A stretch of 64,000 bases of DNA from a virus (Duplodnaviria > Caudoviricetes): the IMG/VR virus record IMGVR_UViG_3300005841_000939. One strand, written 5' to 3'. The translations under genes were made by a program, and so were the position numbers. The notes beneath the pieces are model-generated. The model did no database searches, was not told the origin of the DNA, and saw only the letters and a list, made by a program, of their open reading frames with translations. This document shows, piece after piece, positions 3,243-40,076 of this stretch. Each line of letters opens with the position of its first letter. Position 1 is the first letter of the stretch.

Positions 3243-3421
3243 GAGTCTTGAAATAGACCTTCAGGGATCATGGCATCACAATAAACTTTTGCTTGTTCTC
3301 GGATAGACCATTCAATGTTTCTTATGACGAAGAATTCTACTTTTAACATGTCAACATAGGCCTCAGAATAAAACATACACCTATAGTATCTTGTTTCCTT
3401 TATGAAGAGTGATCCGTTCAT
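3239..3421 (-). CDS. KxxR-array protein
   Basis: Motif KETRYY; IEWSIREQA. Confidence 0.75.
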   Translation of the reverse strand: MNGSLFIKETRYYRCMFYSEAYVDMLKVEFFVIRNIEWSIREQAKVYCDAMIPEGLFQDS

Positions 3422-3642
3422 ATATTAACTGGAGGTTGTGGGCAGAGAATGGTATTGATTCTATGTTGGTTATCAAGTAATGACTCACGCATACCTTCTT
3501 CATGTATGAACTCTTCTATAAGAATTGCTACGTCATACTCTATCCAATAAATTAGCAATTTTTTATCCGTCAATCGGTTTATTTTTTTGTCATCATATAT
3601 CATGCGTTGTGTATTCATGAATAAGACGAATTCCGTGTACAT
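3418..3642 (-). CDS. KxxR-array protein
   Basis: Motif KINRLT; NQHRI. Confidence 0.7.
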   Translation of the reverse strand: MYTEFVLFMNTQRMIYDDKKINRLTDKKLLIYWIEYDVAILIEEFIHEEGMRESLLDNQHRINTILCPQPPVNI

Positions 3643-23213: not shown

Positions 23214-24866
23214 TTAGAGACTGACCTGCTTCCATCCGCTATCATTCCACGATCCGGTTCCATTTGGATGTGAAAAGATGTTATCAGGGAATTGATGGTC
23301 AATTAATTTTGATTTGGTGGGGGTTTTCTGTGCGAATGCCAAAGTTTTATCACTAATTGGTACCACGACAACACCCACAGGAGTTAATGAGAAAATTGGG
23401 CTATGAAACGTGTGGCTTGAATCTAGGATAGTATGCGTACCTTCCGAATTCCAGTAATGCATTTCATACAAGCCTTGCTTCTCAGTAACTAGAATGAGGT
23501 TTCCATATTCTGAATGCCAGGCTGCTATCTTCTTGCCCTTTATTTCTTTCAACGCAACATCTACAAATTTATTTTGTCCGAGATACGCTTTCCAATATGG
23601 CATACCGAGTAAGTAATGAATGAAATTACCAGCAACTCCATTTTTAATTCCAGGAGTTGTTTCACCAACAGCCTTGCTGGTAAGAACCCAATTGATACCA
23701 ACCTTGGTAAATGAATAGTGGAAAATCTTACCATCCTGATTTACTACAAAGAAAGTATTATCGTTTGACAGATACCAATGCTTTGCATTAGGATGAGTCA
23801 TATATTGATTATGATTTGAATCTAGGATCTTATCATCCTTACGATAAAACCATTGCTGCTTATTCTCAGGATGGGTAATGATCCACGTTGAATTATCCAA
23901 TGCAACGTTTGCAGGATAAATGTTTTGATTGATATAGACGTTGCTTGCTGACCATGCAACTACAGTTCCATTTGCCATGCCATAACAGCCCAGCAAATCA
24001 TTTGCGTGTTGCTCATTACTGATTTTCCAACCAACAATTTGTGCAATCTTCTGAACCATCTGAATAACAGCGCCGCGAACAAATCCTGGAGGAGCTGAAC
24101 GCTTACCATTTTGGAAAACATCTTTGTACCAATCCAACATTGGACCAGGTATTGCGCTCCAATCTCTCACAACTGGAGAAACTTTCACACTTGAATCAAA
24201 CACAGAAAGATTCAAACGCATTCTTTCTGTGAATGAAAGTCCCTTTGGTTCTTTGCCTTTGAATGGATGAATGCCCGTCCACAATTGAAATGTGACAATC
24301 CCCCAACCATACCAATCAGATTCTTTATTGAACTTATTATTTTTCTCAGTCAATGGATCACGGACAGATGCCATGATTGCTGTTGCATGATGCGATGGTG
24401 TTTGCCATGCATCGGTATCAATAATCGTAGTTGACCAATTGACTTCATCAAGAAGCCAATTCATTTCATTTGCATCAACTATCAAACAATTTGCATCATG
24501 GACAGATTGCATAATCTCTGCCATTTCTTTACAAATGTTGTTGATGTTTTTACCTTTGAGATTTGCCCGAGTTTGTGCAGGAGTTGTAATATAAGTACAC
24601 AACGGTTTGCCACCCATGACAGCAGGCATCCAATATCCGATACGCTTGCCATTGGTATCGTAAATACTTCCTTCTGATTTTATAACACGTTTGTCTTTGA
24701 TCAAACTAAGTTCTTGCAACTTTGATTCAGGAATACCATTCGCAGGATCATGCCAAATTTTGTAGGCACGATCACCTTTCACATAAACTGTACCTTCACC
24801 ACCATCACCGACTTTCTCTTTGTCAGCAAGAGTGTAGAGCATTCCATTGTTGTCTTTAATTTTCAT
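23214..24866 (-). CDS. Ser/Thr protein kinase, YegI/TerY-P type, with C-terminal beta-rich domain
   Basis: Gly loop GDGGEGTVY, AYKIWH, catalytic IVDANEMN, IDTDAW, SDWYGWGIVTFQLWTGIHPFKG. Start placed at ATG 24866, which overlaps the phosphatase TGA. Confidence 0.88.
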   Translation of the reverse strand: MKIKDNNGMLYTLADKEKVGDGGEGTVYVKGDRAYKIWHDPANGIPESKLQELSLIKDKRVIKSEGSIYDTNGKRIGYWMPAVMGGKPLCTYITTPAQTRANLKGKNINNICKEMAEIMQSVHDANCLIVDANEMNWLLDEVNWSTTIIDTDAWQTPSHHATAIMASVRDPLTEKNNKFNKESDWYGWGIVTFQLWTGIHPFKGKEPKGLSFTERMRLNLSVFDSSVKVSPVVRDWSAIPGPMLDWYKDVFQNGKRSAPPGFVRGAVIQMVQKIAQIVGWKISNEQHANDLLGCYGMANGTVVAWSASNVYINQNIYPANVALDNSTWIITHPENKQQWFYRKDDKILDSNHNQYMTHPNAKHWYLSNDNTFFVVNQDGKIFHYSFTKVGINWVLTSKAVGETTPGIKNGVAGNFIHYLLGMPYWKAYLGQNKFVDVALKEIKGKKIAAWHSEYGNLILVTEKQGLYEMHYWNSEGTHTILDSSHTFHSPIFSLTPVGVVVVPISDKTLAFAQKTPTKSKLIDHQFPDNIFSHPNGTGSWNDSGWKQVSL

Positions 24867-25699
24867 GACACGACAGTCCTGATGAGAGCAGCACATGAAA
24901 AGTCATCATGATGATAGATGGAATTCTTTCCCATCGTCTGACGCATCTTTCCCCAACACCGCTTTAAAAAGTTTCCATTGGTGTTTGGAATGTGAATCAA
25001 CTCGCGGATGATTTTATCAAATGGATAATTATCAACTACTGGAATACCATTTGAATTGGTAACTTTTTGTTTGAATGATGTAATACCATCAGTCATGATA
25101 AAAACTTTTAATGGACTGATGAAAGTAAATGCTTCAAAATCAGTTTTACTTTCAACGACATCAACATCAATGCCATTTCCTTGCGCATCATAATGAAATG
25201 TGCGAATAGTTTTTGTCATATCAACAGTTTTCAATGCTTCTCTTCTTTTATCGCTTAACAAATATGAAAGATAAAGCGGAGTATTCTCTTTGTAATCAAC
25301 AATGATGACATCATAAGAACCATCTGATTTGACGACACAAATTGTGCCATCGCCCCACATAGTTGCTTTGACATTATCTCCTTCAGTTGTTGCAAAAATG
25401 AGTGTTGCATCCAATGATTGCTGAACGATACCAGGAATATTTATTTGCTGGCAATGCGTAAAGTGAAGAATTGCATGCGCCATATCTTCCCACTTCGTGT
25501 AGTTGGCAGCATATGACGCAAAATTTGAAATGGCGAATGAAACTAAAAGTCTTGAACCCCAATCACTATCGGGTGAACTGCTGCAACCATCCGAAACACA
25601 CAAAAAAACATCAGTTGCTGATTTTGAAGTTCCAGCAAAATCCTGACAAACTTCATGATCGTGGCCGATACGATAAAAAGAATCTTTGACCCAACTCAT
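24863..25699 (-). CDS. PP2C-like protein phosphatase, YegK/PphC type
   Basis: GHDHEVCQD, VSDGCSS, DATL, WGDG, MTDG, DDFS metal-binding motifs. Confidence 0.88.
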   Translation of the reverse strand: MSWVKDSFYRIGHDHEVCQDFAGTSKSATDVFLCVSDGCSSSPDSDWGSRLLVSFAISNFASYAANYTKWEDMAHAILHFTHCQQINIPGIVQQSLDATLIFATTEGDNVKATMWGDGTICVVKSDGSYDVIIVDYKENTPLYLSYLLSDKRREALKTVDMTKTIRTFHYDAQGNGIDVDVVESKTDFEAFTFISPLKVFIMTDGITSFKQKVTNSNGIPVVDNYPFDKIIRELIHIPNTNGNFLKRCWGKMRQTMGKNSIYHHDDFSCAALIRTVVS

Positions 25700-25973: not shown

Positions 25974-26297
25974 TCAATTTTTTCTAGGATTAAACGGAAC
26001 TTTTAAACCAATAAGCGAAGCGATTTCTTGATCTTTTTGAGGCAGCTTACTGATCACATATTTGTAAAAATCATCTGCGTTGTAATAAGGATAATGAAGC
26101 CATGTGAAGTCATATTCACCATGCTGCACTAATACCCTCTTATAAAATCCTTTTTCAGTGACAATGACATCAAAGTCACCATCCTCAATTGGATTTTCAG
26201 CATTGGCGAAACACCATTTTTCGCCAGAAACATCAAAAATTTCTTTGCTTTTTATTGCTCTATTGATCGCAATGATTACTAGTTCTTGTATTGTCAT
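25974..26297 (-). CDS. Hypothetical protein (start moved to ATG 26297)
   Basis: The annotated N-terminal extension overlaps the structured RNA; MTIQELVIIAINRAIK is the more plausible start. Confidence 0.65.
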   Translation of the reverse strand: MTIQELVIIAINRAIKSKEIFDVSGEKWCFANAENPIEDGDFDVIVTEKGFYKRVLVQHGEYDFTWLHYPYYNADDFYKYVISKLPQKDQEIASLIGLKVPFNPRKN

Positions 26298-26310
26298 AAA
26301 AGAGAAAGAA

Positions 26311-26506
26311 GATAGTGGCAGGATGCTCGTTCCGACTCTAAATAAAAAGCACAGATTAAGAGTTTTGACAATTGATTTTTGATGGTTGACTGTTGACAAG
26401 TTGAGTCTTGAGTCTTCGCATCGCGTTCATTGTCGTTATCGGTGCCGTATATTATATGGCCTGTACTCTTTACCCAAAGGCAGAAAGAGCAGAGCCTGCC
26501 ACCATC
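26311..26506 (-). ncRNA. Putative ~196-nt structured ncRNA: 41-bp interrupted terminal stem enclosing a 106-nt loop with seven UCAA heptads
   Basis: Arm 26506-26461 pairs with arm 26354-26311 (12+5+5+14+5 bp, 8 G-U pairs); starts 1 nt after the stop of 26508-26978. Confidence 0.72.
26365..26414 (-). repeat. Seven NNN-TCAA units at 7-nt period
   Basis: Plus-strand TTGA starts at 26365, 26372, 26379, 26386, 26393, 26401, 26408. Confidence 0.9.
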
Positions 26507-26507
26507 C

Positions 26508-26978
26508 TCAGATTTCAAAAGGGATCTTGATCTTGGTCAATGCATTGTGAGCATCAACCTCTTCTTGAAGGGTACCGATTTGTTCTTCCAGGTCATTGAC
26601 AGTCTTGTCAATACCAGCAGCATCAAAAACCTGATTGATCTTGATCTTGGTGATGTCCTGAGTTCCGTAAACACGCTCCGTCGTATACTCGCGGTTATCC
26701 GTTGGAACCGTGCGCCAGAATTGCACCAACGACTTCAACTCAGCCATCTGCGCCATCTTCCCATAGATAGGAACATTGGCTTCTTGGATGAGAGTCTTGA
26801 GCGAAATAAGGTTGTTGATCAGTTGGCCGAGAACATCAGACTCAACCTTGGCATCAAAAGAAGACTTATTGTTTTCCTGTGAAACGTTGGATGTCCGAAC
26901 CTTGTTTTGCGTTTCGGAAACCTTCTTGGCGAGGATGTTCTTGAGAGCCAGAGCTTTGCGGAGAGTTATTTCTTTCAT
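26508..26978 (-). CDS. DIP1984/DUF6847 (septicolysin-like) coiled-coil protein
   Basis: Architecture TLRKALALKNILAKK...SNVSQE...LISLKTLIQEAN...IDKTVNDLEEQIGTLQEEVDAHNALTKI matches my recollection of the family; C-ending codon bias. Confidence 0.6.
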   Translation of the reverse strand: MKEITLRKALALKNILAKKVSETQNKVRTSNVSQENNKSSFDAKVESDVLGQLINNLISLKTLIQEANVPIYGKMAQMAELKSLVQFWRTVPTDNREYTTERVYGTQDITKIKINQVFDAAGIDKTVNDLEEQIGTLQEEVDAHNALTKIKIPFEI

Positions 26979-27850: not shown

Positions 27851-28795
27851 TTATACTGGCGTTGTATGACCTTGAGCTAGGGCTGTCTCAAGGGTAGTAC
27901 AATCAAAGCGATCAATGTATGCAATCGTATCGTCTTTAACGATGACAATCAAAGGATCTTTTGGCTTAATTTCACTGGTGGCTCCTACAGTCTTCCAATC
28001 AGCTTCAACAATCAATTTAACTTCGCCACCTACAGAGTCTGCAATTTCTTTAGCCTCAATTATTGTTTTCTTTGCATTTTCAGGTATTAATCCTGGTACA
28101 TGCGTGACAAACTTCATACGAACATCTTCACTATCTTTGAAACTATTGTAATGTTTTATGCCAAAATTTGCCCAAGCTAAACATAGACAAGGGAGTAATA
28201 AAACCAAACCAAAAAATACTAATGGTCCAAGGCCACCAGCACCAGTTGTTATTCCAGAATATAGCATTATTCCTGCAATAATGCAACCAATTATACCAAG
28301 TATGAAATTTGATGTAGCACTTATATCGTTTAAGCTAAACCAGGATTTTGTGTAATTTATTGAAACATTAAACCATGATTGAACATTGGTTCTTAAACGC
28401 AATTCGCCAGACATTGAAATATCAGCGTGAACGCTCAATCCACCACGATCAATTGCATCAGAACCTAACTCAGGCCAATTTTTCAAATCAGTGATTGGCT
28501 GTTTAAAAGGATTTATCATTGCATAAACTGGTAAATCAACAATCAATGAAGGACGAGTTTCAAATGAAACTGTTTTCTTTTTCATTTTCTTCAAAATAGC
28601 AGGTTCAATATATTTTATTTTAGTATCATATCTATCTTGAACTGTTTGAAGCCACATATTGGCAACATCAAATTCTTTCTTTGAGTTTGTGAAACATTCT
28701 TCACATGGAAGTAGATTTTTAAGCTCAACTTGAGGCTTACTAACCTTAATATATTTAGTTTTGGAAACAACATCATCAAGAACATTAGTAGTCAT
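27851..28795 (-). CDS. Two-TM membrane protein, paralogue 1 of 3
   Basis: LLPCEE, LPVYAMINPF, two hydrophobic helices, PGLIP, LIVEADWK, PKDP, IDRFDCTTLE...AQGHTTPV. Confidence 0.85.
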   Translation of the reverse strand: MTTNVLDDVVSKTKYIKVSKPQVELKNLLPCEECFTNSKKEFDVANMWLQTVQDRYDTKIKYIEPAILKKMKKKTVSFETRPSLIVDLPVYAMINPFKQPITDLKNWPELGSDAIDRGGLSVHADISMSGELRLRTNVQSWFNVSINYTKSWFSLNDISATSNFILGIIGCIIAGIMLYSGITTGAGGLGPLVFFGLVLLLPCLCLAWANFGIKHYNSFKDSEDVRMKFVTHVPGLIPENAKKTIIEAKEIADSVGGEVKLIVEADWKTVGATSEIKPKDPLIVIVKDDTIAYIDRFDCTTLETALAQGHTTPV

Positions 28796-28837
28796 AATTG
28801 TATTTCTTTCAGAATTTTCTTGTATATCAAGAAAAAA

Positions 28838-29755
28838 TTATAGAGGAGTTGTGTAGCCTTGGGCCAAAGAAGTTTCAAGGGTTGTGCAATCAAAACGATC
28901 AACGTAGAAAATCATATTATCTTTAATGAGAACAATAACAGGATCTTTTGGAAGTATTTCGCTTTGTTGAAGTTTCCAATCAGCTTCAACTATCAAGCGA
29001 AGTTTGCAACTTTCTCTTCTATCATAATCACTCTGATCAGCAAAATCTCTTAATTCTTTTAACTTATTTTTAACATCTTTTGGAATTAGACCTGGAATTC
29101 TAGTTATAAACTCAAATTTTGCATAAACATCTTTATATAAAGTATTTTGAGTCAATCTGTAAACATTTGACAAAATATTTATTAGACCAACACTTCCTAC
29201 TGAAATTCCAACAAGTAAAGAAGTAAACGAATAGCTTAAAAAGAACATGAACAATACAGAAGCCAAAACAATAATTGAACCTACTATAATATTACTTTTA
29301 ATGCTCAAATCATCAAACAAATTAAAGAATGGTGTATAATTTTTGAAAGATGGTTGAAAGAAATGGCTTAAATTTGTCTCAAATTCTACTGACGTGTTTG
29401 CTTTTAATGACAACCTTCCAGTTAATTTACCAGTATCAGTACCGTTATGAATATACGTACCTTCTTCTACTCTTTTAAATGGATCAATGAACGCATAAAC
29501 TGGCAAACCAATCTTTAAAGAAGGATTGTCAGGAAATGTTACTGTATATTCTTTATTTTTCTTAAGGATTTCTGGATGCAAATATTTCAACTTGTGACCA
29601 AACTTATCTTCAAATCGTTTCAACCACTTAAAATCTATGTTGTTTGGTACATCAACCAAACCTTCTTCACATGGAAGAATATCTTCAGTACTCTTCACAT
29701 CCTGAACTGGAATAACTGAAACAATAACATCTTCAAGGGTTGGTGCAATATTCAT
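28838..29755 (-). CDS. Two-TM membrane protein, paralogue 2 of 3
   Basis: Same conserved blocks (ILPCEE, PGLIP, LIVEADWK, VDRFDCTTLE, AQGYTTPL). Confidence 0.85.
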   Translation of the reverse strand: MNIAPTLEDVIVSVIPVQDVKSTEDILPCEEGLVDVPNNIDFKWLKRFEDKFGHKLKYLHPEILKKNKEYTVTFPDNPSLKIGLPVYAFIDPFKRVEEGTYIHNGTDTGKLTGRLSLKANTSVEFETNLSHFFQPSFKNYTPFFNLFDDLSIKSNIIVGSIIVLASVLFMFFLSYSFTSLLVGISVGSVGLINILSNVYRLTQNTLYKDVYAKFEFITRIPGLIPKDVKNKLKELRDFADQSDYDRRESCKLRLIVEADWKLQQSEILPKDPVIVLIKDNMIFYVDRFDCTTLETSLAQGYTTPL

Positions 29756-29796
29756 ATGGGTATTCTCTCACGAAATAGTTATTTACCAAATTGTTT

Positions 29797-30729
29797 TTAA
29801 ACAGGGGTGGTGTGGCCTTGAGCAATCAAATTCTCTTTGGTGGTGCAATCAAAACGATCAATATAAGCAATCGTATCACCTTTGACGATAACAATGATTG
29901 GATCTTTATTTTCAGGTATGATAGTTCTTTCAACACGGCTAACTTTCCAATCAGCTTCAACAATCAAATAAAGTTCACCACCAACATTTTTTGCAACTTT
30001 TGTTGCCTTTTCAATTTTCTTTTTAGCATCTGGTGGAATTAACCCTGGAAGCATAGTGGAAAAATGTAACTTACATCTTTCATTTTTGACAAATGTATTT
30101 TTATGTAAGTTAACAACAGAAGGAATTGCAAATAAACCACCAAAAATAGATGCAATGCCAGCAATACAAGAAACCAAAACTCTAAGTGGAGTTTCATCAC
30201 AAAATTTAAAAATGGAAAATACAGCTATTGCTGAAACAGCTAGTATAATTGTTCCTGTTATAAAGTTTGCAACAGTTGACATGTCGTCATTTAATAACCA
30301 ATTTTCTTTAACTTTCACATCAACAGTATTTAATGGATGATGTGAAGTATCAACTTTGGATTCTCTATCTCTATCACTAGTAATTTCAACGGTTATTCCG
30401 CCTCGCCGTTGTAAATCATTTCCATAATATTCATCAGTTGGATTTATTGAAGGTAAATGTGGATCAATCAACGCAAATTCAGGTAAACCAATTTTAAGTG
30501 CTTGACGACCTTTTATTTTTATTGAATGATTTTTTGTCCCTTTCAATACTTCTGGATGAAATTTTCTGATTGGGGCGCCATATTCTTTTTGAACAAGTTT
30601 TAACCATTCATTGCTATTCTTCTTGTGATTTTCGCTGAAATGTCTTTCACATGGAAGAAGATTTTCAACAATATGATCTTCAACTAATTCAGAGGAAGTT
30701 TCAATAAGATTTGCGAGAGTAGAAACCAT
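29797..30729 (-). CDS. Two-TM membrane protein, paralogue 3 of 3
   Basis: Same conserved blocks (LLPCER, PGLIP, LIVEADWK, IDRFDCTTKE, AQGHTTPV). Confidence 0.85.
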   Translation of the reverse strand: MVSTLANLIETSSELVEDHIVENLLPCERHFSENHKKNSNEWLKLVQKEYGAPIRKFHPEVLKGTKNHSIKIKGRQALKIGLPEFALIDPHLPSINPTDEYYGNDLQRRGGITVEITSDRDRESKVDTSHHPLNTVDVKVKENWLLNDDMSTVANFITGTIILAVSAIAVFSIFKFCDETPLRVLVSCIAGIASIFGGLFAIPSVVNLHKNTFVKNERCKLHFSTMLPGLIPPDAKKKIEKATKVAKNVGGELYLIVEADWKVSRVERTIIPENKDPIIVIVKGDTIAYIDRFDCTTKENLIAQGHTTPV

Positions 30730-31235: not shown

Positions 31236-31979
31236 TCAGATAGAGATTGACTGAGAAGGACCACCGGTCCCAAGAGCCTGAGACTGAGCCGAAATGCTCT
31301 TGCTCACGAACTGCGCCAGCTTGGCGATTGAGCTTTTCGTTGCATCCTTGATTTCAACGAATTGCGTGAACCCAGCATCCTGTTGGAGAGTGCGAAGTTC
31401 ATTGGCAACCTGAGAATCGCTCATGTTGACACCGACGAGAATTGAGACGATGCTTTCCAGCGATTCTTCCTTCATCATGGAAACCAGAGCTTCCTTGATG
31501 CGATCCTTGCCGTAGTTGCTGGAATTGTTCATGCCATCGGTGATCACGATGACGATGCCGTTTGCCGAGAAGTGCTGAGCATTCAGCGATTTGCCGTAAG
31601 CTGCCGTTGCTTCCACAGCATTGACGCATGCATCGTAGAGGGCAGTCATACCACCGTCACCGAGCAGGTTGGCATAGTCGCCAGCATTGATCGTCATCAG
31701 GGGCTTGAATCCGTGGAATTCTTTCAGCGCACTGCTGAAAGTGGTGACACGAATCAACAGGTTGTCTGCACGGGGACTGTAGCGACAGGCCTTGACGATT
31801 TCCTCCATGCAGTTGATCATGTCAGAACGGAAACTGTTGATGCTTCCCGAATCATCAACAGCGACAGTGATGAGGGTATATTCATCAGCGCCGAGGGATT
31901 CGATTTTCGTGGCCGAGAAGGTGAATGCACCAGGAAGCTTGAATTGTTCCAGGTCATCCGCTGCGTTGAGTTTGGGCAT
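31236..31979 (-). CDS. von Willebrand A domain protein, TerY/YegL-like
   Basis: MIDAS VDDSGS, GMTALYDA, VITDGMNNSS. Confidence 0.9.
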   Translation of the reverse strand: MPKLNAADDLEQFKLPGAFTFSATKIESLGADEYTLITVAVDDSGSINSFRSDMINCMEEIVKACRYSPRADNLLIRVTTFSSALKEFHGFKPLMTINAGDYANLLGDGGMTALYDACVNAVEATAAYGKSLNAQHFSANGIVIVITDGMNNSSNYGKDRIKEALVSMMKEESLESIVSILVGVNMSDSQVANELRTLQQDAGFTQFVEIKDATKSSIAKLAQFVSKSISAQSQALGTGGPSQSISI

Positions 31980-31990
31980 TTGGAGGTTCC

Positions 31991-32800
31991 TTACTTGAGG
32001 ACTTCGGTGCTCTTGGCAAGACGCATGCCGCGAGCAGTCATTTTGGTGATGAAAGCCTGCGCGGCTGATTCAAACCCCGGGACAGGAGAAGTGAGGTCAG
32101 TGAGAAGAACAATCTTCTTCACGTAGTCGTCGTTGCCGAATGCATCAGCGAGGTCGATGACCGTATTCGCCACGCAGTGAGACAGTGCCTGACCAGCGAT
32201 GAACAGATCATCGCAATCATTTTGCAGGGTGGTGACGAGGGGAACGTTCAGACCAGTCGAAGGATCCTCAGGATCGGGCACTTCAGCCTTGATGGCCGAA
32301 TAGTGTTCGGTGAACATGTTGCTGCCTTTGGTGACCTTGTCCACCACATTACCAGCGACATCTTCCCAATCCGTAAGAGATTGGAGAACCGAAGTTTCCA
32401 CACAAGCACCAGGGGTGCCGATGCGACAGTGAGGCGGCCAGATGCAGAGAGGATAGCGACCACCAGCTTTCAAGGCACGAGTGTATGCCAGAGCCTTCTT
32501 GAACGTTGATGGAACAGAAACATTCCATATACCATTCACCACGTCCTCATCGGGGATGATCGTGAAAGGAACAGGATGGTTGCCGTTGCGATCCTTCCAG
32601 AAGATCGGATGGGCGATGTCGAAATGATGATGCGAATCCAAGGTGACGTGAATATCAGCCAGACGATCACCGACACGTTTCACGAACGTTGCCGTACGGT
32701 CGCAGTCATCGGGCGAACCTGCGACGAAAAGAGACCCTGCAGGATTGCAGAAATCCACTTGAGGATCGATCAACAGAAGATGTGGACGTGCGATAGCCAT
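31991..32800 (-). CDS. pncA: Nicotinamidase/isochorismatase-family cysteine hydrolase
   Basis: IDPQVDF (Asp), DSH and WPPHC (metal ligands), TKG (Lys), GQALSHCV (Cys). Confidence 0.82.
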   Translation of the reverse strand: MAIARPHLLLIDPQVDFCNPAGSLFVAGSPDDCDRTATFVKRVGDRLADIHVTLDSHHHFDIAHPIFWKDRNGNHPVPFTIIPDEDVVNGIWNVSVPSTFKKALAYTRALKAGGRYPLCIWPPHCRIGTPGACVETSVLQSLTDWEDVAGNVVDKVTKGSNMFTEHYSAIKAEVPDPEDPSTGLNVPLVTTLQNDCDDLFIAGQALSHCVANTVIDLADAFGNDDYVKKIVLLTDLTSPVPGFESAAQAFITKMTARGMRLAKSTEVLK

Positions 32801-39097: not shown

Positions 39098-39111
39098 TAT
39101 TTATATATTTT
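39098..39111 (-). promoter_or_regulatory. T4-type late promoter AAAATATATAAATA
   Basis: TATAAATA core with a shared upstream AAAAT[A/C]. Confidence 0.6.
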
Positions 39112-39188
39112 ATAACTTATCCAGGATTTATGAAAACAAAGAAGCCCTGATGCTTTCGCACCAGAGCTTTATGATTTTCAGCGTTGAA

Positions 39189-40076
39189 TCAGCCCTTGGA
39201 CAGGACGATTTTCTTGCTGAAAGCCTTTGCCTTGACAGTACTTGCGATAGCAAGCCCGGCTCTTTCCAGATTGGCAGCCGAGAGACGGAAGCCGCCGATG
39301 GCGCGACGATCACCAGCAGCACTTTCCTCGATAGTGATGGAATTCGGATGATACGTGATCATTACCAGTTCATCACGCAGGGCAGCAGCATCGATGATCT
39401 TGATGGGAATTTCCAGCTTACCATCATTGCGCTTGGAGATTACCGATTCATTGTCCAGAGCAGACGAAGTGCTCTTGGTAGCCTTTGGAGCAGCAGCCGA
39501 AGTCGTTGGCGCAGCCAGAGCAGGAGTTGCTGCGATGGATGGCGAACCAACAGGAGCAGCCTGCTGGCCAAGGGACAGCGCGACCTGGGCGCGATTCTGG
39601 TATGCAGCAGGATCGGTATTGTCAGGGTGATAGAGCAGCGCGCGGGCAGGGCCAGTTGGAGTCTGGACCGTGATTTCCGTGGACGTATATCCCCGACCGA
39701 CGATCATGCCATCAGCGATAGCGCGACCATCCTTGCGCACTTCGGAATGTCCGACGAAGCCATGCCCGTCAGACTTGACCTTGTTGCTGATGTCCAGCAT
39801 GGTGAACATGCCGAACTGATTGATGAAGTGGTTCAGAGCATCCGTGATGCGCTGGACGAGAGATGGGGTTGCGAGAGCGTTCATTGACTGGTCCTTGGGT
39901 TGATTTGGATCGAAAGGGATATCGGATTCGTAGATGATGTGTTCTTCGTGTTGATGAGATCGATTTATCGTGTATGGGATCTTTTTTTCATGAAGATATA
40001 AGAGGACTTTTTGTCCTGCTATTAGAGCCTTTGCTCCACCATTTCTTAAATCGATTTTGAAGATTTGTTGTGTCAT
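39189..40076 (-). CDS. Hypothetical protein with Ala/Pro linker and AbrB-like C-terminal barrel; probable internal start at ATG 39884
   Basis: AAGGA SD and abrupt GC rise at 39884; C-terminal SKRNDGKLEIPIKII...LVMITYHPNSITIE. Confidence 0.6.
   Translation of the reverse strand: MTQQIFKIDLRNGGAKALIAGQKVLLYLHEKKIPYTINRSHQHEEHIIYESDIPFDPNQPKDQSMNALATPSLVQRITDALNHFINQFGMFTMLDISNKVKSDGHGFVGHSEVRKDGRAIADGMIVGRGYTSTEITVQTPTGPARALLYHPDNTDPAAYQNRAQVALSLGQQAAPVGSPSIAATPALAAPTTSAAAPKATKSTSSALDNESVISKRNDGKLEIPIKIIDAAALRDELVMITYHPNSITIEESAAGDRRAIGGFRLSAANLERAGLAIASTVKAKAFSKKIVLSKG

What the first reader, a model, noticed from the sequence alone, without database searches (positions are those of the whole stretch)
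26311..26978. Candidate new ribonucleoprotein system: DIP1984-like coiled-coil gene followed directly by a long-stem RNA displaying seven UCAA heptads
Seen (minus strand): one base after the TGA of the 156-aa gene begins GAUGGUGGCAGG-CUC-UGCUC-U-UUCUG-C-CUUUGGGUAAAGAG-UACAG (26506-26461). It pairs with CUGUG-CUUUUUAUUUAGAG-U-CGGAA-C-GAGCA-U-CCUGCCACUAUC (26354-26311): 41 bp with 8 G-U pairs, which favours an RNA helix over a DNA cruciform. The enclosed 106-nt loop has a small GCC...GGC hairpin, then gacUCAA gacUCAA cuugUCAA cagUCAA ccaUCAA aaaUCAA uugUCAA. The spacers vary while the tetramer and the 7-nt period are fixed. A pyrimidine tract follows the stem. Established analogies: repeated short motifs on single-stranded RNA are binding arrays for oligomeric proteins (TRAP, CsrB/RsmZ), and closed-stem RNAs with open loops act as scaffolds (Y RNA, 6S). 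Inference: the upstream protein, whose family function is unclear to me, oligomerises on the heptad track, or the RNA sponges a host RNA-binding protein. I know no described RNA with this layout.
Basis: partly seen in the sequence, partly recalled or inferred. Interest (0 to 1): 0.92.

Follow-up and report, generated by a model that had tools for sequence, protein, structure and literature searches.

The report
Conserved heptad-rail RNA behind DIP1984-like gene
Right after a small gene of unknown function, this giant soil phage encodes a roughly 200-base folded RNA with a row of eight evenly spaced 7-base units; the same gene-plus-RNA pair recurs in other large phages and in some bacteria and is in no RNA catalogue, so it is probably an undescribed protein-RNA particle.

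Summary
Window 26308-26509 (minus strand) folds into a 44-bp closing helix with 9 G-U pairs (-82 kcal/mol, z about -9 to -11). It encloses a G-poor tract with seven UCAA units plus one UCUU, spaced 7 nt apart. This is a family, not a one-off. All 14 distinct phage loci encoding homologues of the 156-aa protein (33-38% identity) carry the same layout 3' of that gene: closing helix, small hairpin, GA-N4 purine box, then 4-10 heptads N3-U-Y-A-A with U and A invariant. Stem sequences differ but stay paired. Two canonical DUF6847 genes in Bacteroidota also have a closed-stem RNA, with a CAC-rich tract instead. The RNA is single-copy per genome, matches no Rfam family, and its downstream genes vary. 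The protein has the DIP1984 fold (3KDQ, Z 12.4), which has no known function. My best reading, which is inferred and not shown: a co-transcribed ncRNA whose helix stabilises or processes it and whose heptad rail lines up several protein copies, most likely the upstream protein. Rivals are a sponge for a gp32-like or host protein, or a cis-acting mRNA element. Earlier AI notes of this scan reported the same module on other DNA. Their link to phage T5 was not supported here.

The parts
26508..26978 (-). 156-aa DIP1984/DUF6847-like gene. Predicted three long helices plus a small beta-sheet, with a basic N-terminal helix and an acidic C-terminal helix.
   Evidence: ORF. Pfam PF20935 E 0.004, 17.6 bits, below the cut-off of 27. 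915 homologues at E<=1e-3. AF2 pLDDT 95. Best solved structure 3KDQ, Z 12.4, 142 aa aligned. Charge pattern and conserved K13, N14, N31, K61, N68, E80, K82, Q138, N145.
26308..26509 (-). Whole structured RNA element (about 202 nt). It fills the intergenic gap.
   Evidence: Fold -82.4 kcal/mol, z -9.1. z -10.9 and 44-bp outer helix. Only strong hit of model R1 in the window.
26461..26509 (-). P1, 5' strand of the closing helix (purine-rich). It overlaps the last two bases of the stop codon.
   Evidence: The 5' strand is purine-rich in 14 of 14 loci.
26444..26460 (-). P2, small hairpin (GCC...GGC). An equivalent 5' hairpin is present in the homologous RNAs.
26423..26440 (-). Purine box of GA-N4 hexads (GAUAAC GACAAU GAACGC). 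It is rich in UAA/UGA triplets and is predicted to pair with the last two heptads.
   Evidence: Alignment A8 columns 1-18. Register-specific GA:UY pairing, 62% paired against 29-48% when slid.
26358..26414 (-). Heptad rail of eight N3-U-Y-A-A units (seven UCAA plus UCUU). It is G-poor.
   Evidence: Rail composition across the family is A 0.40, U 0.33, C 0.18, G 0.09.
26308..26354 (-). P1, 3' strand of the closing helix (pyrimidine-rich).
26298..26307 (-). Pyrimidine/U-rich tract between P1 and the next start codon.
   Evidence: A U-rich tail (7 or more U in 12 nt) follows P1 in 5 of 14 loci.
25974..26297 (-). Downstream 107-aa gene. It is not a conserved partner and is shared only with locus L003.

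Best explanation
This is one member of a conserved, uncatalogued gene-plus-RNA module. A DIP1984/DUF6847-fold protein gene is followed on the same strand by a non-coding RNA of about 170-220 nt. Shown: the RNA has a long closing helix formed by its two ends, a small 5' hairpin, a GA-N4 purine box, and a G-poor rail of 4-10 heptads N3-U-Y-A-A. This layout is kept while the stem sequences and the neighbouring genes change. It is single-copy per genome. Inferred: the RNA is co-transcribed with the protein gene. The closing helix protects it and may serve as a double-strand processing stalk, as RNase III stems do for rRNA. The rail presents identical U-Y-A contacts every 7 nt, so that several protomers of an RNA-binding protein line up on it. 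The most likely partner is the protein encoded immediately upstream, which would make a phage- and bacterium-encoded ribonucleoprotein. The cellular role of that particle is not known. The window places it among early and counter-defence-type genes, and three related loci place it beside tRNA genes.
For: - Structure: z -9.1 and -10.9 in the window. All 11 trimmed homologous RNAs give z between -2.6 and -10.9.
- Co-inheritance: 14 of 14 distinct phage loci with a homologous protein (33-38% identity) have the RNA 3' of the gene. The downstream genes are unrelated.
- Blind recovery: model R1, built from 11 cores, found an untrained locus (L150, E 5e-11) about 100 nt after its DUF6847 homologue.
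- Copy number: R1 gives exactly one strong hit in each of two huge-phage genomes of 462 kb and 595 kb, each just 3' of the homologue.
- Periodicity: U-Y-A pairs at lag 7 number 36 and at lag 14 number 26, against 10 or fewer at every other lag. U and A are 11/11 invariant in five heptads, and the middle base is never G.
- Compensatory changes in P1, for example CG/GC/AU at one pair.
- RNA more conserved than protein: the core is 73% identical between window and L003, whose proteins are 36-37% identical.
- Strand asymmetry: the P1 5' strand is purine-rich in 14 of 14 loci. The sense strand is more stable in 8 of 11.
- Bacteria: two canonical PF20935 genes in Bacteroidota (180 and 163 bits) are each followed by a closed-stem region with a CAC-rich tract. 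The tract is 7-nt periodic in one of them, p 0.0005. This hints that the rail motif changes with the protein subfamily.
- Protein: a conserved basic N-terminal helix (net +5.4) and invariant Lys/Asn/Gln residues.
- Precedents for periodic single-strand motifs bound by protein oligomers or cooperative binders: HutP sites at U498/U505/U512, which have a 7-nt period (PMC2425495), and the UUAAA/UAAA repeats of the T4 gp32 operator (PMC535899).
Against: - There is no direct evidence that the RNA accumulates. No RNA run holds this DNA.
- There is no evidence of binding between this protein and this RNA. The DIP1984 fold has no known activity, and all structural neighbours are uncharacterised.
- The heptad number varies from 4 to 10, which argues against a fixed ring stoichiometry.
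- In L003 and L004 the antisense strand folds better.
- L059 and the two GC-rich bacterial regions have non-significant fold z-scores.
- The rail can pair in part with the purine box, so it may not be freely accessible.
- Gene adjacency would equally fit a cis-acting 3' UTR element.
Confidence: 0.5

Rival explanations
1. The RNA is real, but its rail binds a different protein. It would act as a sponge, decoy or store for a cooperative single-strand binder with a site size of about 7 nt. Candidates are a phage gp32-like SSB or a host RNA-binding protein or nuclease. The neighbouring protein would have another role, such as chaperone or regulator.
For: In the T4 gp32 translational operator, an unstructured tract with UUAAA/UAAA repeats lies next to a folded nucleation element (PMC535899). 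These loci are T4-like or huge phages: a gp44 clamp loader and DNA polymerase exonuclease in L134, and an SSB gene 430 nt downstream in L135. The rail is A/U-rich and G-poor. The window neighbourhood holds counter-defence-type genes (first-reader notes, unchecked).
Against: The only gene that always accompanies the RNA is the DUF6847 homologue. The motif seems to differ between protein subfamilies, UYAA against CAC. That is easier to explain with a co-evolving dedicated partner than with a generic binder.
Confidence: 0.2
2. It is a cis-acting part of the mRNA and not a free ncRNA. It could be a 3' stabiliser, an RNase III processing site or an atypical terminator for the DUF6847 transcript. 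It could also be a bridge that brings the upstream stop codon next to the downstream start, allowing termination-reinitiation.
For: P1 starts 11 nt or less after the stop codon in most loci. In the window, L003, L134 and L059 it ends 8-10 nt before the next ATG. A U-rich tail follows P1 in 5 of 14 loci. The window's downstream start has an unusual pyrimidine-rich leader.
Against: None of these roles needs 8 heptads with invariant U and A, or a conserved purine box. The downstream element varies: unrelated genes, a tRNA in L005, or gaps of 50-70 nt. L007 and L139 have an extra ORF between the gene and the RNA. The standard terminator scan finds nothing here.
Confidence: 0.17
3. It is a DNA-level element: a replication origin, packaging or recombination site with 7-bp iterons flanked by an inverted repeat (cruciform).
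For: Inverted repeats and short direct repeats are typical of origins. In L003 and L004 the antisense strand folds better. The element is single-copy per genome.
Against: There are 9 G-U pairs in the window stem and 52 across the family. Purine/pyrimidine strand asymmetry has the same direction in 14 of 14 loci. Orientation is fixed relative to the gene. A 7-bp period puts successive sites on different faces of duplex DNA.
Confidence: 0.06
4. The loop encodes a small peptide. An ATG in the purine box opens a 24-codon frame in the window.
For: Short ORFs start at the same AUGAAY in the window, L003 and L059.
Against: Indels shift the frame between window and L003 while the nucleotides stay conserved. 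In the other loci the conserved triplet at that position is UGA, not AUG. A 7-nt period is incompatible with a conserved reading frame.
Confidence: 0.02

Closest known systems
HutP and the hut terminator RNA of Bacillus subtilis (PMC2425495)
   Same: Short motifs repeated at a 7-nt period on single-stranded RNA, each contacted by one subunit of a protein oligomer. The spacers are free to vary.
   Different: HutP is a different fold and family, and no HutP domain is present here. Its motif is NAG, not UYA. It has 3+3 sites in a 5' leader that control a terminator. Here, 4-10 sites sit inside a closed-stem RNA 3' of the putative partner gene.
Phage T4 gp32 translational operator (PMC535899)
   Same: T4-like phage setting. 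A folded nucleation element lies next to an unstructured A/U-rich tract of more than 40 nt with UUAAA/UAAA repeats, used for cooperative protein loading.
   Different: The operator lies 5' of gene 32 and includes its ribosome-binding site. It has no closing helix and no reported strict period. Here the element follows a DIP1984-like gene and is not attached to an SSB gene.
TRAP/trp leader and CsrB/RsmZ-type sponge RNAs (own knowledge)
   Same: Arrays of many identical short motifs that bind a multimeric protein or many copies of a protein.
   Different: Their motifs are GAG/UAG or GGA, with other periods, and sit in a leader or on hairpin loops. The protein families are unrelated, and the partner gene is not adjacent.
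Ro60 (Rsr) with Y RNA / YrlA, and 6S RNA (own knowledge; also named in earlier scan notes)
   Same: The RNA ends pair into a long closing stem that encloses a functional internal region. For Ro/Y RNA, the protein and RNA genes are often adjacent.
   Different: No Ro/TROVE protein is present and no Rfam Y RNA or 6S match was found. Those RNAs have no periodic rail.
Stable RNAs of unknown function in phage tRNA clusters (T5 RNA1, RNA2, RNA2H, RNAI, RNAIV as annotated in AY543070)
   Same: Phage-encoded non-coding RNAs of unknown role. Three loci of the present family lie beside tRNA genes.
   Different: T5 has no match to the protein profile or to RNA model R1. T5 RNA2H has no heptads and follows a promoter rather than a helical-protein gene.
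DIP1984 / Pfam DUF6847 (crystal structure 3KDQ, Corynebacterium diphtheriae)
   Same: Same fold as the upstream protein (Z 12.4, TM 0.62). It is the only solved relative.
   Different: It is a structural-genomics entry with no assigned function. Sequence identity is about 15-17%. Whether its gene has a downstream RNA was not tested here.

Membership tests
Pfam DUF6847 (PF20935) / DIP1984 family (the protein) | Match to the family HMM above the gathering score | tested here: not met
   17.6 bits, E 0.004, against a cut-off of 27. The huge-phage homologue also scores 17 bits.
Pfam DUF6847 (PF20935) / DIP1984 family (the protein) | Same three-dimensional fold as the solved member 3KDQ | tested here: met
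   AF2 model pLDDT 95. 3kdq_A is the top hit by VIA-align, Z 12.4 with 142 of 152 residues at rmsd 3.6. It is also the top hit by Foldseek, TM 0.62.
Pfam DUF6847 (PF20935) / DIP1984 family (the protein) | Linked to bona fide members through intermediate sequences | tested here: met
   Homologue P0002 carries PF20935. The nearest Atlas clusters have PF20935 in 19-23% of members, and a 100% PF20935 bacterial cluster matches at TM 0.74. Profile A4 hits the canonical Bacteroidales gene at E 1.5e-9.
Any Rfam 15 RNA family | Covariance-model match | tested here: not met
   No relevant hit at E<=10 in the window region. Only tRNAs were found at E<=1 in 10 homologous loci.
HutP-type antitermination system | HutP protein, and NAG triplets in a 5' leader overlapping a terminator | tested here: not met
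   No HutP domain in the neighbouring proteins. The motif is U-Y-A and the element is 3' of the gene. Only the 7-nt period is shared.
T4 gp32 autoregulatory operator | Lies in the 5' leader of an SSB (gene 32) and covers its ribosome-binding site | tested here: not met
   The element follows the DUF6847 gene in 14 of 14 loci. An SSB gene is nearby only in L135 and is not adjacent.
Intrinsic (Rho-independent) terminator | Short G+C-rich hairpin immediately followed by a U run | tested here: inconclusive
   The consensus scan finds none here. A 200-nt closed structure is atypical for a terminator. A U-rich tail follows P1 in 5 of 14 loci.
MITE or other dispersed repeat | Multiple copies per genome | tested here: not met
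   One strong R1 hit in the 64-kb window and one in each of two huge-phage genomes. No match in INPHARED by blastn.
Retron msr-msd RNA | Adjacent reverse-transcriptase gene | tested here: not met
   No RT family appears among the Pfam hits of the neighbouring genes in the window or in the fetched loci.
tRNA / tmRNA | Recognised by ARAGORN or by the Rfam tRNA/tmRNA models | tested here: not met
   No tRNA or tmRNA in the window, and none overlapping the RNA in related loci.

The most novel reading that the evidence does not exclude
This could be a new class of ribonucleoprotein shared by huge or T4-like phages and some bacteria. A three-helix DIP1984-fold protein would polymerise at a fixed 7-nt register on its own cognate closed-stem RNA. 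The rail motif would co-evolve with the protein subfamily: UYAA in the phage clade, CAC in Bacteroidota, and other motifs reported in earlier scan notes. That would give the DUF6847 family its first function and add a new kind of sequence-periodic RNA-protein filament.
Probability: 0.35. Interest if true: 0.85.

Novelty: new variant of a known kind. Interest (0 to 1): 0.72.

Why it matters
If true, a widespread protein family with a solved structure but no function (DIP1984/DUF6847) would gain a testable role as the partner of a dedicated RNA. The family has more than 900 clusters at 50% identity, mostly viral. RNA catalogues would gain a new family with an unusual, strictly periodic single-stranded rail. 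The module is small, at about 0.7 kb, and could be tested directly in vitro by binding, stoichiometry against heptad number, and cryo-EM. Its position among early and counter-defence genes and beside tRNA clusters in large phages suggests a role in host takeover or RNA metabolism that is not yet on any map.

Tried and rejected
- Close relatives: IMG/VR by protein and by stem sequence gave nothing. INPHARED blastn gave nothing.
- Profile-based locus search failed because the protein alignments have no stretch conserved enough.
- Short DNA patterns in IMG/VR gave mostly chance hits. One pattern happened to catch a true member, L059/L110, which was recognised later with the protein profile.
- Metagenome pattern scan: 0 hits.
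- Genome-collection scan with P0002: no relative.
- Heptad pattern scan of bacterial genomes returned unrelated heptanucleotide tandem repeats, mainly from cyanobacteria and Bacteroidota. R1 scores were only 13-28 bits.
- Expression: no RNA-seq run holds the DNA.
- Link to phage T5, proposed in earlier scan notes: T5 has no match to protein profile A4 or RNA model R1, and T5 RNA2H has no heptads. I did not adopt the link.
- Small-peptide reading: rejected because of frame shifts and because UGA, not AUG, is the conserved triplet.
- Sigma-70 -35 mimicry (TTGACA on the opposite strand): rejected because homologues have UUAA there.
- boxA-like CUCUUUA: rejected as simply the eighth heptad.
- Anticodon-loop mimicry: rejected because the base before the triplet is not U.
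- Promoter and terminator scan: nothing specific. TATAAATA late boxes are not enriched.
- Conserved helix between the GA box and heptads 6-7: register-specific but weak. It is 62% paired, and 27 of 500 shuffles reach the covariation score, so I left it as inconclusive.
- Structure searches in PDB, AFDB and the Atlas gave only uncharacterised relatives.

Full report
**What is in the window.** On the minus strand, a 156-aa ORF (26508-26978) ends with TGA at 26510-26508. The next gene (107 aa) starts with ATG at 26297. The 210 nt between them fold into one structure.
- The closing helix P1 pairs 26509-26461 with 26354-26308. It has 44 pairs: 17 G-C, 18 A-U and 9 G-U.
- P1 encloses a small hairpin (26444-26460), a purine box made of GA-N4 hexads (26423-26440), and a G-poor tract (26358-26414).
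- That tract holds seven UCAA plus one UCUU at spacings 7, 8, 7, 7, 7, 7, 7.
- The fold energy is -82.4 kcal/mol against -47.2 for dinucleotide shuffles (z -9.1). The trimmed RNA gives z -10.9.
- The complementary strand folds far worse (-64.2, z -3.0).
- In a sliding fold of the whole window, this is the only low-GC segment among the most stable ones.
- Four UCAA at exact 7-nt spacing occur nowhere else in 64 kb and in none of 100 shuffles.

The helix is slightly longer than stated and overlaps the stop codon. The 'loop' is predicted to be partly paired.

**Origin.** The window belongs to a phage-like contig of 379,560 bp from rhizosphere metagenomes. Genes are dense, small, co-directional and lack Shine-Dalgarno sequences. 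Two other assemblies carry an identical copy of the region, so they add no covariation. No whole genome is held.

**The protein.**
- Pfam gives only a sub-threshold DUF6847 hit (17.6 bits against 27).
- An exhaustive HMMER search finds 915 homologues at E<=1e-3. The best are 33-40% identical and 141-176 aa long.
- An AlphaFold2 model built on 36 of them has pLDDT 95. It shows three long helices plus four short strands.
- The best solved match is 3KDQ, the DIP1984 protein of Corynebacterium diphtheriae: Z 12.4, 142 residues aligned, well above the next rows, and TM 0.62.
- All AlphaFold DB and Atlas neighbours are uncharacterised. The Atlas neighbours are mostly viral, and one bacterial cluster is auto-named 'putative Septicolysin'.
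- The family keeps a basic N-terminal helix (net +5.4), an acidic C-terminal helix (-5.3), and invariant Lys/Asn/Gln residues.

The label 'DIP1984-like' is therefore justified by fold, but it brings no function.

**The RNA is a family.** I fetched the loci of the homologues that the tools could reach.
- In every one, the gene is followed on the same strand by a 190-440-nt gene-free stretch. Each stretch folds into a long closing helix, starting 11 nt or less after the stop codon in most loci. In L007 and L139 one small ORF intervenes.
- Two huge-phage genomes in GenBank, LR756500.1 (462 kb) and LR756511.1 (595 kb), are the only INPHARED records with a homologue, and both have the RNA.
- One IMG/VR contig (L059) is a further member.
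- That makes 14 of 14 distinct phage loci.
- The trimmed RNAs are 171-222 nt with z-scores from -2.6 to -10.9. The whole L059 gap, and GC-rich cases, are not significant on their own.
- Stem sequences are unrelated between loci. Among the three alignable relatives, P1 shows compensatory changes, for example CG/GC/AU at one pair.
- The 5' strand of P1 is purine-rich and the 3' strand pyrimidine-rich in 14 of 14 loci. The sense strand is the more stable one in 8 of 11.

**The conserved core.**
- MAFFT aligns the inner 80-100 nt of 11 RNAs (A8).
- The core begins with the GA-N4 box (consensus GAUAAnGAUAAUGA).
- It continues with eight heptads in which U and A are invariant (11/11) in five units. 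The middle base is C or U and never G, and the fourth base is mostly A.
- Over all gaps, U-Y-A pairs at lag 7 number 36 and at lag 14 number 26, against 10 or fewer at any other lag.
- Rail composition is A 0.40, U 0.33, C 0.18, G 0.09.
- The core is 73% identical between the window and L003, whose proteins are only 36-37% identical.
- A sequence-only covariance model of the core (R1) hits the window once (E 1e-14).
- It hits each huge phage once, just 3' of the homologue.
- It recovered an untrained locus (L150/L151, E 5e-11) about 100 nt after its gene.
- L149 is too divergent for R1 but has the closing stem and UCAA/UUAA units.
- The GA dinucleotides of the box pair with the UY of heptads 6 and 7 in a register-specific way (62% paired against 29-48% when slid). 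The support is weak, since 27 of 500 shuffles reach the covariation score.

**Context.**
- The genes downstream of the RNA are unrelated between loci. Only the window and L003 share one.
- tRNA genes flank the module in L004, L005 and L134.
- Replication genes (gp44-type clamp loader, polymerase exonuclease, SSB) lie nearby in L134 and L135.
- No reverse transcriptase, Ro or HutP-type gene accompanies it.
- Rfam 15 has no match in the window at E<=10, or in 10 related loci at E<=1, apart from tRNAs.
- I found no paper on DUF6847 or DIP1984 beyond a plasmid annotation.

**Bacteria.** A scan of 301 Bacteroidota genomes found canonical PF20935 genes (180 and 163 bits) in two. Both are followed by a closing stem that encloses about 135-150 nt with a CAC-rich tract. 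The CAC units are 7-nt periodic in L278 (p 0.0005) but not clearly so in L233. L278 also contains a T-arm-like hairpin. This is thin evidence: two loci, with non-significant fold z-scores at high GC. It suggests that the module reaches beyond phages and that the rail motif changes with the protein subfamily.

**Interpretation.**
- Shown: a conserved, single-copy, strand-specific structured element that is co-inherited with one protein family and carries a strictly periodic motif under strong selection.
- Inferred: it is an RNA that is co-transcribed with the gene. P1 stabilises it and may be a double-strand processing stalk. The rail aligns several protein protomers at a 7-nt register.
- The upstream protein is the most economical partner, because it is the only constant neighbour and because the motif seems to track the protein clade.
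- Precedents for periodic single-strand recognition are HutP (sites at U498, U505, U512; PMC2425495) and the UUAAA/UAAA tract of the T4 gp32 operator (PMC535899).
- The variable heptad number (4-10) fits linear cooperative loading better than a fixed ring.
- I put 0.5 on this reading, 0.2 on a sponge for another binder (gp32-like SSB or a host protein), 0.17 on a purely cis-acting mRNA element, 0.06 on a DNA-level element and 0.02 on a peptide.

**Earlier notes of this scan.** AI notes on other genomes describe the same gene-plus-RNA module: e1-5281358 and e1-5281359 in a bacterium with TCAAANY units, and e1-5234276 in gut bacteria and phages with GUU units. My independent results agree on the module and on the HutP analogy. 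I could only partly test the bacterial range. Other notes tie a similar module to phage T5. In my tests T5 has no match to the protein profile or to R1, and its annotated RNA2H has no heptads, so I do not use that link.

**Limits.**
- No expression data exist and no binding test was possible.
- The structural alignment outside the core is poor, so covariation in P1 rests on three sequences plus the independent folding of each RNA.

Noticed in passing
L139:1920-2010 (LR756511.1): A lysine-rich mini-ORF of about 28 codons (MAKGKTPKKEPKK...) sits between the DUF6847 homologue and the RNA in this 595-kb phage. In L007, an 89-aa ORF (1253-1522) occupies the same position.
   Followed up: no
L004:1968-2042; L005:2745-2819, 3251-3326, 3411-3484; L134:168-250: tRNA genes lie directly beside the gene-plus-RNA module in three of the related phage loci. 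In L005, a tRNA-Cys follows the RNA immediately.
   Followed up: partly
L278:2015-2035: The RNA behind a canonical Bacteroidota DUF6847 gene contains a hairpin with a T-arm-like loop (GUGGG-UUCGAUC-CCCAC), reminiscent of tRNA-like domains.
   Followed up: no
window 31500-32400 and 39100-39900: Two islands of much higher G+C (0.52-0.61 against about 0.40 elsewhere) give the most negative fold energies in the window. They may be recently acquired genes.
   Followed up: no
window 27851-30729: Three tandem paralogous genes of about 310 aa with two predicted membrane helices and strongly conserved C-terminal blocks (LIVEADWK, DRFDCTT) lie just upstream of the module.
   Followed up: no
window 23214-25699: A PP2C-type phosphatase (PF13672, E 3e-17) overlaps a 560-aa protein with a weak protein-kinase domain, just downstream of the module.
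   Followed up: no
L154-L273 (genome contigs pattern scan): The pattern TYAAANN x4 is common as heptanucleotide tandem repeats in cyanobacterial and Bacteroidota genomes. In L233 such an array lies upstream of an rdgB-like gene, about 0.8 kb from a DUF6847 gene, and is unrelated to the RNA behind that gene.
   Followed up: partly
L153 (phage T5, AY543070 30500-33000): The T5 tRNA region is annotated with five 'stable RNAs with unknown functions' (RNAI, RNA1, RNA2H, RNAIV, RNA2). RNA2H folds with a closing stem (z -3.0) but has no heptad rail.
   Followed up: partly
window 26298-26320: The leader of the downstream 107-aa gene is pyrimidine-rich, unlike the A-rich leaders of most other genes in the window.
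   Followed up: no
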